NCBI GenBank assembly: GCA_000004695.1
Contig: CM000151.3
Coordinates: 8,256,001-8,320,000, forward strand
DNA: 64,000 bases
Direction: 5' to 3'
Origin: Dictyostelium discoideum
Taxonomy: Eukaryota
The notes beneath the pieces were generated by a model. The model had not been told where the DNA came from. It searched no databases and worked only from the letters and a program-made list of their open reading frames with translations. Of the stretch, positions 27,318 through 48,369 are shown piece by piece; within the stretch, counting starts at the first letter, position 1, and each line of letters begins with the position of its first letter. The position numbers and the translations under genes are program-made.

Positions 27318-28557
27318 GACCGAATTAATTTTTTATGTTTCATTTTTTTTTTTTTTTTTTTTTTTTCCCACAATTTTCATTTTTTTTTTTTTTTTTTATT
27401 TTTTTTTTTTTTTTATTTCAAAAAAACTAATTGGCAACAAAAAGGAAATTATTTTAATTTGTATAAAAAAAAAAAAAAATAAAAATAAAAATAAAAAATA
27501 AGAGATTTTAAAAATTGTTTTTATAGAAATTTTGATTTCTTTTAGTAAATTACTTAAAAATTTAAAAATGTAAAGATAATTTTTATTTTTTATTATTTTT
27601 TTTATTTTTTTTTTTTTCAACCTTTTAATAAAAGAGGAACATTTTACAATAAAATAGTTTTTGTAATTAAAAAATAGAAATTAATAGAAAAAAAAAAAAA
27701 ATTATTTCTTATTTTTTTTTTTTTTTATTTTCAATAATCAAATTATTGTTTTTATTTGTGTTTTTTTGTTTTTTTATTTGAAGAAAAAGTAAATTAATTA
27801 ATTGAAAAAACAAAATCTTATTCTTGATCACCCAAACCTAAACACATCAATCAAATAAAATTTATTTCATTGAAATTTTTATTTGTTATTTTTAATCATA
27901 AGGGAGTTAATTTAAAAAGAAAACGAGAAAATGATGATGTAGTGTTTTTGGGGTTCCAATTTTAGGGAAAATTGGAGAGGTTTTTATTATAAAATTGTAA
28001 AAAAAAAAAAAAAAAAATTGGAAAAAATAAAAAAAATAAAAAAAATAAAAAAAAAAAACAAAATTTTTTATTTTCAAATAAATCATTCTATAAATAAAAT
28101 TGAAAAAAAAAAAAAAAAAATAAAATAAAAAAAAAAAAATAAAAAATAAAAAAAGAAAAAAAAAAAAAAAACCAATTCAAATGCGATAAAAAAAAAAAAA
28201 ATATTAACCAAATAATTATTAAAAAATTATTAAAATACCGAAAAATTAATAAAAAAAAAATTAAATAAAAAAAAGAAAGAAAGATATATATATAATAACT
28301 TTTTTATTTATTTATTATTTATTATTTATTTTAATAACTCACAATCAAATATTAATATTAATATTTTCAAAAAAAAAAAAAAAAAAAAACAAAAAACACA
28401 ACTTAAAATTTTTAATGCAAAAAATCAAATAAAAAAAAAAAAAAAAAGAAAGTTATTTATTTATTAAACTATCAAATTTTAAATCTATATATCATTTTTA
28501 TATGACAAATTCGATGTAAGTTATTGATATAAAAACAACAATAGTTTTTTTTATTTA

Positions 28558-30260: not shown

Positions 30261-30816
30261 ACACTGTTTTTCTTCATTTATACTTACACATAAACCATTG
30301 ACATATTACCACACACAAAAATTCACCACCCTTATTTATTGGTTTTTTTTTTTTTTTTTTTCAAAAATTTTATTTTATTTTATTATTATTTTTTTTTTTT
30401 ATCATTGCAAAAATTTTCACACCAAACTAAAATTTTATTTTATTTTATTTTTTCTTTGTTCTAAAAAATTAATAATAAATAAATAAATAAATAAATAATA
30501 TAAAAAAGGTTTTTTAACTTTTTTTTTTTTTTATTTTTTATTTTTAATTTCAAATACTATAATATTATTATTATTATTACTTTCAACTTTAAAAACTTTT
30601 TATTTTTTTTTTTTTTTATTTTCAATTTTATTAATTTTTAATTAATAAAATTTAATGCATATATAAAACAAAATAATTATCAAAAAAATTAAAAACCTTT
30701 TTAAAAAATCATCATCGTCGTCATCGTCGTCTTCTAATAATAATAATAATAATAATAATAATTTAAATAATAATAATAATAATAATAATATTGAAAATAA
30801 TAATAATAGTAATAAT

Positions 30817-32448: not shown

Positions 32449-33175
32449 GAACAAATGAAAAGATAAAGTAATATTATAATCTTTTCAATTATTTATGTAA
32501 ATAGAATCAAAAATAAATAATAAATTTAAACTTGTAATTTCAAGTTGAAATTAATAAAAAAAATAAATTATTTTTATTTTGTAAAAAACTATTATTAACT
32601 TGTTTTATTATTTACATTTAATTATTATTATTATTATTATTATTTTTTTTTTTTTTGGATTTATCAAGATCTTAAAATAGTTTTGCTGAATTTATCATTT
32701 TTTTTATTAAATTATTATCAAATTATCTAATATCATCCATCTCATTGGAGCTCCAATATAAATAAATATATAATAATAAAAAAATAACAAATAATTTCAA
32801 GTTTTTTTTTTTTATTAATAATAATAAATTCAGAAAAAACTTTTTTTTTCTTAAATATAATGGAGTCACTTTATTTTTGTTTATGAAAAGTGAAAAAAAA
32901 AAAAAAAACCTTTATTATAATGATTAAACCTGGCTATAGCCCTTGTAAGCCTTGTTAGAAATAAAAAAAAAATTTAAATCTAGATAGTGAGATGATTTAA
33001 AATTATACAATTATTAATTTCCAAATATTGTAATAATAAAAATTGTATAACTATAATATCATCACCACCACCACAACCACCGCCATCAATAACTTATCAA
33101 GTTATATTAAATCATTTTTTTTCAAAAATTATTACCACCATTTAATGAGAATACATTTTTTTTTTTTTCTCACAC

Positions 33176-33216
<41 letters not shown>

Positions 33217-33504
33217 ATTGATACAGTATTTTCATAATAGTATATTTAAAAAAAAAAAAATAATAAAAAGAATATGGAGGTCGGTTGGTATTCACTCAAG
33301 ATGATGTTGAACTTGGTTATACTTTGGTTGGGAAATCAATTGGGACAAATCAAATTTTTTGTAATTTCCTTTTAAATGTTACTCAATCAGATATTATTTA
33401 CACTGTTAGAAGTCCAGCATCCAATACACAAGATATGACAATTAAAGCATTATCTGGAGGAACAAAAGGCGTAACCACTCATCTTGTATTTTTACAAGTT
33501 GGAT

Positions 33505-33540
<36 letters not shown>

Positions 33541-33541
33541 T

Positions 33542-33881
33542 TTATTCACATTCAAAATCTGGTGGGCATCTAACATCATCACAATTGTTGATTGGTACAC
33601 AACACATTTCATCTTTGACAGGATCATATTTACATTCAAATCCTGGTTGACATTTTATATCCTTACATCTTGAATCATAACTTTTTGGTACAACAAATTT
33701 CATCTTTAAATGAATCATATTCACACTCATTACCTATTGGACATTGAACATCTTTACATTTATAATTATTATAATTACTAGATTGATCAATTACACATGA
33801 CCTTTCATTATTTTTAATTTCACAATGATATCCTTGTGGGCAACAAAGTGTTGAACAATCTTTTGATTAAAATAAAATTTA

Positions 33882-33913
<32 letters not shown>

Positions 33914-34206
33914 CATTAATAAATATTTAATTAAAAAATAAAAAATAATAATAATAATAAATTATAATTACCAGTAATTATTGGACCATCTGTATCACAT
34001 ACACATGATCTTTCATTATTTTTTATTTTGCAATGGTACCCAGTGGGACAAGTTAATGTTGAACAATCTGATTAATAGATATTAAAATTAATATTTTGTT
34101 TTTATATATATTTTTTTTTATATAATAAAATTACCTAAAGCTGAAGGTTTCCAGTTATCATTACTATTTGCATTTGAGTGCGGTACATAAAGGAAATATA
34201 ACAATG
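33542..34206 (-). pseudogene. Cys-rich ~24-aa repeat (ecm/psp 'Dicty_CTDC'-like) protein gene, apparently disrupted; candidate exons complement(34135..34206), complement(33972..34067), complement(33542..33859)
   Basis: Two consecutive phase-1 exons each start DCSTL(T)CP(T/Q)GYHC(K/E)IKNNERSCV. The last exon continues KCKDVQCPIGNECEYDSFKDEICC, then needs a +1 shift (TGTTGT-TACC versus intact TGTTGTGTACC in the next repeat) to read VPKSYDSRCKDIKCQPGFECKYDPVKDEMCCVPINNCDDVRCPPDFECE*. No in-frame ATG was found for the 5'-most exon. Confidence 0.4.
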
Positions 34207-34825
34207 CTTTTAAATATAAATTTTCATTCTTTTATTCATCCAATTTATATTAATATATATTATATTATATTTTTTTAAATAATCTATAATTTAACTTACT
34301 CTTTAAAAATTATAATTAATTATTTGTGTAGTAAATATTATATTTAATTTTTTTTTTTTTTTTTTTTTTCTAATCTATCATTTGATTCAATATGTGTTAA
34401 CAGTGGGTGTATTTGTATTCAAATTTGTTTTTTCAACACACTGTGGTAACACTATGATTTATTTGTTTTTTAATCTTTTTTTTTACATTTTTTTTATTCT
34501 TTATTAAATGGGTGTGGTAAATAAAATATAATAATTATAATTATTGTAAGTTGTAAAAAATAAAAAATAAAAAAAAAAAAATGAAAAAGAAAATTTGTTG
34601 ATAGATTAAAAAAAAAAATAAACTATAGTATTAATTAAAAAAGGCGCTTTTTTAATGGAATGACGCAAGTATTAATTGCTTCTTCTTGAGATAAATCTCA
34701 TTTTATTAGTTTGAATTTATAAGGGCCTTTTTAAAGGTAGGTATGGTTATTACAATTTTTTTTTTTTGTTGAGTCGGAAATAAGTATTACAAAAAAAACA
34801 CAAAAATGAAATAATTTCGTAATTC

Positions 34826-34896
34826 GCCGTGATAGTATAGTGGTAGTACATCAGATTGTGGCTCTGTTGACCCTGGTTCGATTCCAGGTCGCGGCA
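34826..34896 (+). tRNA. tRNA-His(GUG): tRNA-His (anticodon GUG)
   Basis: Cloverleaf: acceptor GCCGTGA/TCGCGGC, A box TAGTATAGTGG, anticodon loop TTGTGGC (GTG), T arm CCTGG-TTCGATT-CCAGG, discriminator A. Immediately followed by a CTTTTTTCT Pol III terminator. Confidence 0.9.
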
Positions 34897-34905
34897 CTTT
34901 TTTCT
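34897..34905 (+). terminator. RNA polymerase III oligo-T terminator of the tRNA-His gene
   Basis: CTTTTTTCT directly after the discriminator base. Confidence 0.5.
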
Positions 34906-34935
34906 AATTTTTTCTAATTTTGAAAAATGGACGCA

Positions 34936-34946
34936 GGTTCAATTCC
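34936..34946 (+). promoter_or_regulatory. extra B box (ex-B) 40 bp downstream of the tRNA gene
   Basis: GGTTCAATTCC is a near-copy of the internal B box GGTTCGATTCC. This is the spacing described for the additional B boxes of Dictyostelium tRNA genes. Confidence 0.5.
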
Positions 34947-35534
34947 ATTTTTAATTTTTTGGAATTCCGTTTTTAAATTATAGTTTTGATCAATTTCATA
35001 AAAAATTAAATTCCATACCAAAGCCATAAATGGAATATAGTTAATTAATATAAAAAAAAATTTTTGGAAAAAAAAAAAATATGATTTTTAAAAAATGATA
35101 TGAAACATATTTTGGAAGTGTGGGTGTGTTGAAAAGTGTGTTTCATTGTTTATCATTTTATATTTGTATGTAAAAATATAAAAAAATAAATAATAAAAAA
35201 AAAAATAAAAAATAAAAAAAATCAATTTTTTAAACATTTTTTTTACATGAATATTCTATTTTTTATTTTTTTCAAATATAAAATTATTCTCTCATTTATA
35301 TAACCACACACAAATAATTAATAAAATGAAATCTTTAATATTTTTATAATTTTATATTTAATAAATCGATTTCATTGTATAGATGAAAGTATATTTATAA
35401 AAAAAAATGGTAATTATTATATTTTTATTTTATTTTTTTTATTTTTATTCTTTAATTTTTTATTAATTAAAATTTAAAAAATAAAAAAAAAAGAAATAAT
35501 AATTGAAGAAGATGAAATTAAACCACCATTGAAA

Positions 35535-43469: not shown

Positions 43470-43681
43470 TCCATTATTATCATTATTATTATTATCTTCT
43501 TCACTTATATATTGATTTGGAACACTAACAAATGGTAATTCTGATTCTATATTTAAGGTTGGTGATGATGGTGGTGGAGCTGATGGAATTGGTGATGATA
43601 GTGGTGGTGCTGTTGGTGGTGGTAATGGTGATGATTGTATTGGTGAAGTTATTATGGTTATACAACAACCTCTATACCTGT

Positions 43682-43852
43682 TTATGGATCAAATGCTCGT
43701 ATATTTATAATTGTAATTGTATTTGTATTTGTTGGGCTGGTGGTTGTTGTCGTAGTAGTCGTTGTAGTAGTTGTGGAAGGAGAATAAGGTGGAGAAATAT
43801 GAGGAGGTATTGGCGAACTATCCTTTGTAAAATGATTTGCACCATTGCCCAT
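43682..43852 (-). CDS. short ORF with N-myristoylation-like start ([44 protein letters not shown]..), possibly the frameshifted or mis-assembled 5' part of the downstream tail-anchored gene
   Basis: 56-aa ORF ending TAA at 43682-43684. Same Pro/Ser/Thr-rich composition as the open frame immediately downstream in the +1 frame. The two overlap by ~7 nt. Confidence 0.3.
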
Positions 43853-43865
43853 TTTTTTATTTTAA

Positions 43866-47966: not shown

Positions 47967-48010
47967 CAGTTGACGGGGGGTTTCTTAGAAGAATTGCTGT
48001 AAGGTCAACT
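47967..48010 (-). ncRNA. Class I non-coding RNA gene (Dictyostelium-specific family), copy 1
   Basis: Minus strand reads 5'-AGTTGACCTTACAGCAATTCTTCTAAGAAACCCCCCGTCAACTGT-3'. The 5' GTTGAC + CCTTACAGCAA 11-nt motif is conserved. The 3' GTCAAC can pair with the 5' end as a terminal stem. An oligo-T run follows. Confidence 0.6.
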
Positions 48011-48315: not shown

Positions 48316-48369
48316 CAGTTGACAGGGGGTTTTCTTTTTATGTAGAGAATGAATTGCTGTAAGGTCAAC
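48316..48369 (-). ncRNA. Class I non-coding RNA gene, copy 2 (tandem, same orientation, ~360 bp from copy 1)
   Basis: Minus strand reads 5'-AGTTGACCTTACAGCAATTCATTCTCTACATAAAAAGAAAACCCCCTGTCAACTGTC-3'. Same conserved 5' motif and terminal stem. Confidence 0.6.

What the first reader, a model, noticed from the sequence alone, without database searches (positions are those of the whole stretch)
33542..34206. Frameshifted, start-less ecm/psp-like Cys-rich repeat gene built from one-repeat-per-exon units
Two consecutive exons on the minus strand begin with the same 24-aa unit (DCSTL(T)CP(T/Q)GYHC(K/E)IKNNERSCV). They sit in identical splice phase (1/1), an exon-per-repeat architecture. The 3' exon continues with further repeats (C..CP.G.EC.YD..KDE.CCVP) but needs a 1-nt insertion (TGTTGT^TACC versus TGTTGTGTACC in the neighbouring repeat) to stay in frame. 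No in-frame ATG precedes the first recognisable exon. This is either a decaying member of the extracellular-matrix/prespore Cys-repeat family or a sequencing error in a repeat.
Basis: seen in the sequence. Interest (0 to 1): 0.55.

Follow-up and report, generated by a model that had tools for sequence, protein, structure and literature searches.

The report
Broken spore-coat-type cysteine-repeat gene
This is a small Dictyostelium discoideum gene for a secreted cysteine-rich protein built from the same modules as spore-coat proteins, but two small deletions have broken its reading frame, so it is most likely an ordinary young pseudogene that two genome annotations have modelled wrongly.

Summary
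On the minus strand at 34231-33542 lies a three-exon gene. It has a signal-peptide-like exon, a 96-nt symmetric phase-1/1 exon holding one Cys module, and a last exon holding 3.5 more modules.

There are two frame-breaking lesions:
- The ATG at 34227 is one base out of frame with the signal-peptide ORF. Adding one A gives MKNLYLKALLYFLYVPHSNA.
- Module 3 reads TGTTGT|ACC where module 4 reads TGTTGTGTACC.

An independently assembled D. discoideum genome has the same sequence at both sites. The AX4 reference protein DDB_G0277633 (62 aa) is simply the ORF that follows the frameshift. A sequencing error is therefore very unlikely.

The modules (Cx4Cx5Cx8C) are homologous to those of dictyostelid spore-coat and prespore "follistatin-like" proteins and resemble avian CREMP modules. 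They do not match the EcmA/EcmB repeat model (Pfam PF00526), and the spore-coat N-terminal domain is absent.

Synonymous differences between the duplicated modules far exceed non-synonymous ones, so the gene was once under selection.

A newer 156-aa gene model rescues the frame with an implausible 46-nt "intron" and a 790-nt intron that spans a tRNA-His gene.

Verdict: a recently disabled, unprocessed pseudogene or null allele. Interest is low.

The parts
34225..34239 (-). Two ATGs in the same frame as each other (34239-34237 and 34227-34225) in an A-rich context (AAAAGAATGAAAA). They read MNKRMKIYI* and stop at 34212-34210. They are 1 nt out of frame with the signal-peptide ORF. This is lesion 1, most simply a 1-nt loss in the A4/T3 runs at 34224-34218.
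   Evidence: Adding one A after ATGAAA yields MKNLYLKALLYFLYVPHSNA….
34135..34231 (-). Exon 1. The open frame reads KNENLYLKALLYFLYVPHSNANSNDNWKPSAL. It is signal-peptide-like, with a hydrophobic core ALLYFLYV and an SNA|NS cleavage-type motif. It ends in phase 1 at a GTAAT donor.
   Evidence: GC is 27.8%, against 7.5% in the adjacent intron.
34068..34134 (-). Intron 1: 67 nt, GTAATT…AATCAG, 7.5% GC.
33972..34067 (-). Exon A: 96 nt, symmetric phase 1/1. It holds module U1, DCSTLTCPTGYHCKIKNNERSCVCDTDGPIIT (Cx4Cx5Cx8C).
   Evidence: module HMM 27.3 bits.
33860..33971 (-). Intron 2: 112 nt, GTAATT…CAAAAG, 4.5% GC. It contains the only base in the gene that differs from the second assembly (33913).
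33759..33859 (-). Exon B, module U2: DCSTLCCPQGYHCEIKNNERSCVIDQSSNYNNYK (Cx4Cx5Cx8C). It is an old duplicate of U1.
   Evidence: dN/dS about 0.09; Fisher p 6e-5; 25.7 bits.
33668..33758 (-). Exon B, module U3: CKDVQCPIGNECEYDSFKDEICC, followed by lesion 2.
33687..33695 (-). Lesion 2. The sequence is TGTTGT|ACC where paralogous unit U4 has TGTTGTGTACC (33604-33594). A GT is missing between 33690 and 33689. The upstream frame then ends at TGA 33677-33675 (…EICCTKKL*).
   Evidence: The site is identical in L001 and is implied by AX4 protein P0003.
33584..33667 (-). Exon B, module U4: CKDIKCQPGFECKYDPVKDEMCCVPINN (Cx4Cx5Cx9CC). It is readable only in the shifted frame.
33542..33583 (-). Exon B, truncated module U5: CDDVRCPPDFECE, then TAA. 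The stop sits where U3 and U4 have the Tyr codon TAT. This is either the natural end of the gene or a possible third lesion.
33542..33730 (-). The 62-aa ORF annotated in the AX4 reference as DDB_G0277633 (XP_642569.1, Q54ZC8). Its first 13 residues (MSVNMIHLKMKFV) are an out-of-frame reading of U3.
33681..33726 (-). The 46-nt 'intron' (GTGTGA…AAAAAG, 26% GC) used by gene model P0001 to skip lesion 2. In frame it encodes ECEYDSFKDEICC, the conserved second half of U3. It is judged an annotation artefact.
34229..35027 (-). The ATG mini-exon of model P0001 (ATGGCTTTG, 35027-35019) plus its 790-nt intron (35018-34229). The intron contains the tRNA-His gene on the opposite strand. This is one of seven chance ATG mini-exon solutions.

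Best explanation
The locus is an unprocessed pseudogene of D. discoideum, or at least a null allele fixed in the sequenced strains. It still has its introns.

Its intact ancestor (inferred) encoded a secreted protein of about 169 aa. That protein had a cleavable signal peptide followed by 4.5 tandem two-disulfide modules of the Cx4Cx5Cx8C 'follistatin-N-like'/CREMP type. These are the modules that make up the Cys-rich regions of dictyostelid spore-coat and prespore proteins. By analogy, such a protein would be routed through the secretory pathway and act as a small disulfide-stabilised structural or cross-linking component of an extracellular matrix such as the spore coat. This functional step is inferred, not shown.

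The gene grew by internal duplication, one step of which duplicated a symmetric phase-1/1 exon (U1 and U2).

Two small slippage-type deletions now disable it. A 1-nt loss just after the ATG uncouples the start codon from the signal peptide. A 2-nt (GT) loss in module 3 truncates the frame.

Both existing annotations are artefacts of forcing an ORF through the wreck: the 62-aa AX4 model and the 156-aa model with a 46-nt intron.
For: **Shown**
- The exon/intron anatomy is supported by a sharp GC contrast and by GTAAT…AG splice sites.
- The two lesions and their minimal repairs give one uninterrupted 169-aa ORF.
- The window and L001 clearly come from different assemblies: 131 differing columns in 21.5 kb, mostly homopolymer lengths. 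Across 33542-35027 they are identical except for one intronic base.
- AX4 protein DDB_G0277633 equals the post-frameshift ORF, so the reference carries lesion 2 as well.
- Neither lesion lies in a long homopolymer.
- Homology: phmmer against 1.84 billion representatives finds dictyostelid proteins at E = 4e-29 to 1e-4. The named ones are a 'prespore protein' and a 'spore coat protein SP70', and three of the hits scanned carry Dicty_spore_N.
- Relatives of the top hit are named 'Spore coat protein…' or 'Follistatin-like domain-containing'.
- A profile built from 95 foreign modules finds all five units: 72.3 bits, against at most 10.4 for shuffles.
- Cys spacing is Cx4Cx5Cx8C in U1 and U2. This is the spacing of the solved CREMP module (9pgb, E = 0.0034), which has C1-C3/C2-C4 disulfides (PMC12723725).
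- Past selection: U1/U2 pS is 0.65 against pN 0.12 (Fisher p = 6e-5). U3/U4 is 0.60 against 0.21 (p = 0.018).
- No intact copy or close paralog turned up in 5.8 billion proteins.
- The gene ID and UniProt accession were not found in the full text of the literature library. They were also absent from the held supplements of a cell-type RNA-seq paper and a life-cycle proteome paper.
Against: - No expression data could be examined, so transcription and splicing are untested.
- Apart from the two frameshifts the sequence is clean, with no in-frame stops. Inactivation is therefore recent, or the locus may be rescued in some way.
- An automated annotation (P0001) does produce an open 156-aa model with GT-AG introns. 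If it was built with RNA-seq hints, that would argue for function.
- The strain origin of the second assembly is unknown. It may belong to the same NC4-derived laboratory lineage, in which case the lesions could be strain-specific rather than species-wide.
- Lesion 1 is an inference. A real upstream spliced start exon would make it unnecessary.
Confidence: 0.75

Rival explanations
1. The gene is functional and is expressed as in model P0001 (ACTFIT_004939, 156 aa). A 3-codon ATG exon at 35027-35019 is spliced over a 790-nt intron that contains the tRNA-His gene. A 46-nt micro-intron (33726-33681) removes the frameshifted half of module 3.
For: - The model is reproduced exactly from window coordinates, and all junctions are GT…AG.
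- It yields a plausible signal peptide (MALNENLYLKALLYFLYVPHSNA) and an even number of Cys in the mature part: 20, against 23 in the repaired protein.
- A 492-nt intron exists in the nearby Rpl7a gene, so long introns do occur.
Against: - The 46-nt segment has 26% GC, against 4.5-7.5% in the gene's two clear introns. Its donor is GTGTGA, unlike the GTAAT of the two clear introns.
- In frame it encodes ECEYDSFKDEICC, which is homologous to unit 4.
- Removing it destroys module 3. That region is the lowest-confidence stretch of the AF2 model, although the model as a whole is weak.
- D. discoideum introns have a mean of 133 bp and a median of 104 bp (PMC4683709).
- Seven different in-phase ATG mini-exons can be found upstream by chance.
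- The AX4 curators did not adopt such a model.
Confidence: 0.1
2. The gene is intact in the organism, and the frameshifts are sequencing or assembly errors in a repeat.
For: - The gene is otherwise clean.
- The window carries clusters of differences from L001 elsewhere, including one that breaks a 264-aa ORF that is intact in L001. At least one of the two assemblies therefore contains local errors or variants.
Against: - Both lesion sites are identical in the two assemblies, which disagree elsewhere mainly in long homopolymers.
- The AX4 RefSeq protein independently encodes the shifted reading across lesion 2.
- The sites are a TGTTGT|ACC context and an A4/T3 run. These are not long homopolymers.
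Confidence: 0.04
3. The reference model is right: the functional product is the 62-aa ORF DDB_G0277633 (33730-33542), a small Cys-rich peptide.
For: It is an ATG-initiated ORF that ends at the gene's stop, and it is annotated in AX4.
Against: - Its first 13 residues are an out-of-frame reading of module 3 and include no signal peptide, so 1.5 disulfide modules would be left in the cytosol.
- It ignores about 330 nt of upstream exon sequence (exon 1, exon A and the first part of exon B) that is homologous, spliced and shows a signature of purifying selection.
- Q54ZC8 was not found in the held supplements of the life-cycle proteome paper.
Confidence: 0.03

Closest known systems
Dictyostelid spore-coat / prespore Cys-rich proteins (SP96/CotA-like P0010, 'SP70' and 'prespore protein' of Tieghemostelium lacteum, P0002/P0007 with Dicty_spore_N; annotated 'Follistatin-like domain-containing' in Heterostelium)
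   Same: It has the same tandem module, with consensus C-D-N-V-x-C-P-x-G-Y-H-C-x8-C-V and spacing Cx4Cx5Cx8C. Sequence similarity is significant (E down to 4e-29; module profile 72 bits). It has a signal-peptide-like N-terminus and a Cys content of about 13%.
   Different: It lacks the Dicty_spore_N domain and any Ser/Thr-rich or mucin-like region. It is very small (about 169 aa, against 500-1100). Units 3-5 are a variant with a CC doublet and Cx9 spacing. The first unit sits on its own symmetric exon. The reading frame is broken.
[quoted passage not shown]
   Same: Cys spacing is identical (Cx4Cx5Cx8C). There is weak but detectable sequence similarity over three consecutive units (E = 0.0034). 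The low-confidence AF2 model predicts one β-hairpin in each of U1, U2 and U4, as in the NMR structure (PMC12723725).
   Different: CREMPs are animal proteins of more than 2000 residues, with 81 modules plus VWD and C8 domains. This is a resemblance of module type, not family membership. The disulfide connectivity here is untested.
EcmA/EcmB (ST430/ST310) 24-residue repeat, Pfam PF00526 Dicty_CTDC
   Same: Both are Dictyostelium extracellular Cys-rich tandem repeats of about 24 residues.
   Different: PF00526 gives no hit at E ≤ 10 to the repaired protein, and none at E ≤ 1 to P0001 or to eight of its hits.
Unprocessed (duplicative or unitary) pseudogenes
   Same: It retains introns and the upstream flank, carries small frame-disrupting indels, and was under purifying selection in the past.
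   Different: No intact parent copy or ortholog was found, so it looks unitary rather than a dead duplicate. Loss of expression has not been shown.

Membership tests
Dictyostelid spore-coat/prespore FOLN-type (CREMP-like) module proteins | Tandem modules with Cys spacing Cx4Cx5Cx8C and a C-P-x-G-[YF]-x-C core | tested here: met
   U1 and U2 fit exactly. U3 and U4 are Cx4Cx5Cx9CC variants. U5 is cut after Cys3. A profile from 95 foreign modules hits all five units.
Dictyostelid spore-coat/prespore FOLN-type (CREMP-like) module proteins | Significant sequence similarity to named family members | tested here: met
   phmmer E = 4e-29 (P0002, Dicty_spore_N), 1e-11 ('prespore protein'), 2e-5 ('SP70') and 7e-6 (D. 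discoideum P0010, Dicty_spore_N).
Dictyostelid spore-coat/prespore FOLN-type (CREMP-like) module proteins | N-terminal signal peptide (secreted protein) | tested here: inconclusive
   A signal-like ORF is present (LKALLYFLYVPHSNA|NS). It joins an ATG only after a 1-nt repair, or through a doubtful upstream exon. No signal-peptide predictor was available.
Canonical spore coat proteins (SP96/SP70/SP60-type) | Dicty_spore_N domain (PF04562) at the N-terminus | tested here: not met
   The repaired protein and P0001 give no PF04562 hit. Relatives P0002, P0007 and P0010 do hit it.
Canonical spore coat proteins (SP96/SP70/SP60-type) | Prespore-specific expression, packaging in prespore vesicles and incorporation into the coat | not testable with these tools
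   No expression data were reachable. The gene ID was absent from the searched literature and from the held supplements. Two ACACCCA (G-rich on the other strand) motifs lie 180-290 bp upstream. The window holds 7 against 2.8 expected, which is only a weak hint.
EcmA/EcmB repeat family (Pfam PF00526 Dicty_CTDC) | Match to the PF00526 repeat model | tested here: not met
   No hit at E ≤ 10, and none in P0001 or the eight hits scanned at E ≤ 1. No positive control with EcmA itself was run.
CREMP / follistatin-N-like two-disulfide module (structure 9PGB) | β-hairpin module with C1-C3/C2-C4 disulfides | tested here: inconclusive
   Sequence match to 9pgb_A has E = 0.0034. The single-sequence AF2 model of P0001 has mean pLDDT 55. 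It shows one hairpin in each of U1, U2 and U4, but it is too weak to assign disulfides.
Pseudogene (unprocessed) | Frame-disrupting lesions relative to homologous intact sequence, reproducible in independent sequence data | tested here: met
   A 2-nt deficit against paralogous unit U4, and an ATG 1 nt out of frame. The sequence is identical in L001, and the AX4 protein equals the shifted ORF.
Pseudogene (unprocessed) | Lack of a functional product (no translation, or no correct splicing that restores the frame) | not testable with these tools
   This needs RNA-seq, cDNA or proteomics for the locus.

The most novel reading that the evidence does not exclude
The locus may not be dead but may be expressed through unusual processing. 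That would mean a functional 46-nt micro-intron that excises a frameshifted half-module, plus a 790-nt first intron that hosts an antisense tRNA-His gene.

Alternatively, the lesions may be confined to the NC4/AX laboratory lineage. In that case wild D. discoideum would make an intact mini spore-coat-type protein that laboratory strains lack.
Probability: 0.1. Interest if true: 0.35.

Novelty: new member of a known kind. Interest (0 to 1): 0.15.

Why it matters
The main value is for annotation. DDB_G0277633 (62 aa) in the AX4 reference and ACTFIT_004939 (156 aa) in a newer assembly are both artefactual models of one disrupted three-exon gene. The locus should be recorded as a pseudogene of the spore-coat-type Cys-module family.

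It is also a tidy small example of module and exon duplication through a symmetric phase-1/1 exon, followed by recent decay. It shows how a gene predictor can invent a micro-intron to hide a frameshift.

It does not open a new biological question.

Tried and rejected
- **Paralogs in the window:** tblastn of the repaired protein found only the gene itself.
- **Pfam on the repaired protein:** only sub-threshold TILa and Lustrin_cystein hits, with no Dicty_CTDC and no Dicty_spore_N.
- **Intact copy or close paralog:** a word-indexed search of 5.8 billion proteins returned only P0001. The same search failed to list the 62-aa AX4 ORF, so it is not exhaustive for short proteins.
- **Fetching the locus from more assemblies:**
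  - The 154-aa neighbour returned only the same assembly.
  - The 62-aa ORF is not in the gene-position index.
  - The 264-aa neighbour ORF is broken in the window.
  - As a result, D. citrinum and other D. discoideum assemblies could not be examined.
- **Expression evidence:** literature and supplement searches for DDB_G0277633 and Q54ZC8 found nothing.
- **Strain identity:** a search for a paper describing the new assemblies was unproductive.
- **Structure:** the single-sequence AF2 model of P0001 was too weak (pLDDT 55) to justify a fold search.
- **Neighbouring ORF:** the + strand ORF at 33285-33506 has no Pfam hit and no homolog that shares words.
seven in-phase ATG mini-exons exist and none is compelling. 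One starts antisense inside the tRNA gene.

Full report
**Source of the window**

The window is about 20% GC. It contains two Dictyostelium Class I RNAs and a tRNA. It is 99.4% identical over 21.5 kb to a contig of D. discoideum assembly GCA_054883475.1 (L001). It also encodes exactly the AX4 RefSeq protein XP_642569.1 / DDB_G0277633. The window is therefore D. discoideum nuclear DNA. AX4 places this gene on a record of 8.48 Mb.

**Anatomy, read directly from the minus strand**

- **Exon 1.** The frame is open from 34231 to 34135. It reads KNENLYLKALLYFLYVPHSNANSNDNWKPSAL and ends in phase 1 at a GTAAT donor.
- **Intron 1.** 34134-34068, 67 nt, 7.5% GC.
- **Exon A.** 34067-33972, 96 nt, phase 1 at both ends. 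It encodes DCSTLTCPTGYHCKIKNNERSCVCDTDGPIIT (U1).
- **Intron 2.** 33971-33860, 112 nt, 4.5% GC.
- **Exon B.** 33859-33542. It encodes:
  - U2: DCSTLCCPQGYHCEIKNNERSCV…
  - U3: CKDVQCPIGNECEYDSFKDEICC
  - U4: CKDIKCQPGFECKYDPVKDEMCCVP
  - U5, truncated: CDDVRCPPDFECE, followed by TAA
- **Composition.** Exons are 28-32% GC.

The core observation holds. Two exons open with the same unit in the same phase, the frame breaks inside the 3' exon, and there is no in-frame ATG.

Three details are wrong or incomplete:

1. The frameshift site reads TGTTGTACC (33695-33687), while U4 reads TGTTGTGTACC. The deficit is therefore GT. Restoring the frame takes +2 or -1 bases, not +1.
2. Only U1 has an exon to itself.
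3. An ATG in good A-rich context sits at 34227, and another in the same frame as it at 34239. Both are 1 nt out of frame and read MKIYI*. Adding a single A in the A4 run gives MKNLYLKALLYFLYVPHSNA|NS…, a conventional signal peptide. I read this as a second slippage-type lesion. This is an inference.

With both repairs the gene is a clean 169-aa ORF. The stop codon sits where U3 and U4 have TAT, so the last unit ends after its third Cys. That is either the natural end of the gene or a third lesion, and I cannot tell which.

**Sequencing error is very unlikely**

The window and L001 differ at 131 alignment columns in 21.5 kb. Most of these are homopolymer lengths, plus a few clusters of substitutions, so the two come from separate assemblies. 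From 33542 to 35027 they differ at a single intronic base, 33913. Both lesion sites are identical in the two. Neither site lies in a long homopolymer.

There is independent support from AX4. The AX4 protein MSVNMIHLKMKFVVPKSYDSRC… reads across lesion 2 in the shifted frame. The Sanger-based reference therefore carries that lesion too.

**Both existing annotations are artefacts**

- **AX4 model (62 aa).** It is simply the longest ATG ORF after the frameshift. Its first 13 residues are an out-of-frame reading of U3.
- **Newer model P0001 (156 aa).** I reproduced it exactly from window coordinates.
  - It uses a 3-codon ATG exon at 35027-35019. This is spliced across a 790-nt intron that contains the tRNA-His gene on the opposite strand.
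  - It also uses a 46-nt 'intron', 33726-33681 (GTGTGA…AAAAAG), that removes the lesion.
  - That 46-nt segment is 26% GC, and in frame it encodes ECEYDSFKDEICC, the conserved second half of U3.
  - D. discoideum introns have a mean of 133 bp and a median of 104 bp (PMC4683709).
  - Seven different in-phase ATG mini-exons can be constructed within 1.4 kb upstream. Finding one is therefore not evidence for a real start exon.

**Family**

- **Pfam.** Nothing scores above threshold on the repaired protein. In particular there is no PF00526 (the EcmA/EcmB repeat) and no PF04562 (Dicty_spore_N).
- **Exhaustive phmmer of P0001 against 1.84 billion representatives.** It gave 19 hits.
  - The best is a 903-aa protein from the EukProt eukaryote collection that carries Dicty_spore_N (E = 4e-29).
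  - Others include a 'prespore protein' and a 'spore coat protein SP70' from Tieghemostelium.
  - Acytostelium and Synstelium proteins also appear.
  - A D. discoideum Dicty_spore_N protein (P0010) looks like SP96 from my memory of that sequence.
  - Relatives of the top hit are named 'Spore coat protein…' and 'Follistatin-like domain-containing protein'.
- **Module spacing.** The shared element is a module of about 24 residues with Cys spacing Cx4Cx5Cx8C. U1 and U2 fit exactly. U3 and U4 are a Cx4Cx5Cx9CC variant.
- **Module profile.** A profile built only from 95 modules of other dictyostelid proteins detects all five units. It scores 72.3 bits, against at most 10.4 bits for 500 shuffles.
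- **Solved structures.** The only match is the 4-module avian CREMP, 9PGB (E = 0.0034).
  - Its authors describe the same Cx4Cx5Cx8C spacing and C1-C3/C2-C4 disulfides over a small β-hairpin.
  - They also note frequent annotation as 'follistatin-like N-terminal' and the original similarity to slime-mould spore coat proteins (PMC12723725).
- **Structure prediction.** A single-sequence AF2 model of P0001 is weak (pLDDT 55). It places one hairpin in each of U1, U2 and U4, and leaves the artificially spliced U3 region disordered.

The 'ecm-like' part is not. The protein lacks the N-terminal domain of canonical coat proteins.

**It was once a real gene**

- U1 against U2: 8.5 synonymous differences over 13.2 synonymous sites, and 6.5 non-synonymous differences over 52.8 sites. 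dN/dS is about 0.09 and Fisher p = 6e-5.
- U3 against U4: 6 over 10 synonymous, and 11 over 53 non-synonymous. p = 0.018.

The duplications are old, with dS saturated. The copies were kept under purifying selection. The absence of any further stops means the inactivation is recent.

**Mechanism**

*Shown:*
- A three-exon gene with five FOLN/CREMP-type modules.
- Two frame-breaking lesions, reproducible in independent data.

*Inferred:*
- The ancestral product was a small secreted, disulfide-rich matrix or spore-coat accessory protein.
- The lesions arose by slippage, in an A/T run and in a TGTGT microrepeat.
- The locus is now non-functional.

No expression data could be reached. I could not obtain the locus from wild isolates or from D. 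citrinum. A lesion specific to the laboratory lineage, or rescue by unusual splicing, therefore remains possible at roughly 10%.

**Verdict**

This is an ordinary, recently disabled member of a known Dictyostelium Cys-module family, mis-modelled in two annotations. Interest is low, and the main use is correcting the annotation.

Noticed in passing
window 34826-34897 (+): A tRNA-His(GTG) gene lies about 600 bp upstream of the Cys-repeat gene's ATG, on the opposite strand. Gene model P0001 places it inside a 790-nt intron. Nearby tRNA-targeted retrotransposon remnants (TRE5/TRE3/DGLT-A) were not specifically searched for.
   Followed up: partly
window 33277-33506 (+): A coding-like ORF (27% GC; …YGGRLVFTQDDVELGYTLVGKSIGTNQIFCNFLLNVTQSDIIYTVRSPASNTQDMTIKALSGGTKGVTTHLVFLQVG*) converges on the 3' end of the gene. 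It has no Pfam hit and no word-sharing homolog, and it is not called in the second assembly. The nearest ATG (33274) is out of frame. It may be a terminal exon or another gene relic.
   Followed up: partly
window 43615-43853 (-) vs L001 1183-1420: A 264-aa single-exon ORF is intact in assembly GCA_054883475.1 but broken in the window. The cause is a tight cluster of about 11 differences, all towards A or T, including two GAA→TAA stops and a 1-nt deletion. Similar clusters of substitutions occur at window 35249-35304, 33116-33141, 30366-30513 and 28172-28238. These are local sequence errors in one assembly or hypervariable spots. Which of the two is unresolved.
   Followed up: partly
window 47967-48009 and 48316-48369 (-): Two Dictyostelium Class I RNA genes (Rfam RF01414, 43.7 and 51.8 bits) lie about 300 bp apart.
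   Followed up: no
proteins P0004, P0009, P0012, P0013, P0015, P0018 (hits): Proteins from metagenomes and Logan assemblies carry tandem TCLTLTCxxGYHCE…CV modules. Two of them (P0004, P0009) have bacterial lipoprotein-like signal peptides. P0004, P0009, P0012 and P0013 have two or three exact Cx4Cx5Cx8C modules, with up to 51% identity to U1/U2. P0015 has a Pfam-confirmed Kazal domain next to the modules, and P0018 has a Kazal-like motif. The FOLN-like module therefore appears to exist outside eukaryotes.
   Followed up: no
window 34404-34410 and 34509-34515 (-); also 35121-35127 (-): ACACCCA (G-rich on the complementary strand) motifs lie 180-290 bp upstream of the ATG. The window holds 7 against 2.8 expected. 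They are reminiscent of GBF-type elements of prespore promoters, but this is only a weak hint.
   Followed up: partly
window 34227 to 33542 (-), spliced: The two lesions (-1 near the ATG, -2 in U3) sum to -3. After splicing, the ATG at 34227 is back in frame with the last 49 codons. The intervening reading is full of stops, so this is a curiosity and not a rescue.
   Followed up: yes
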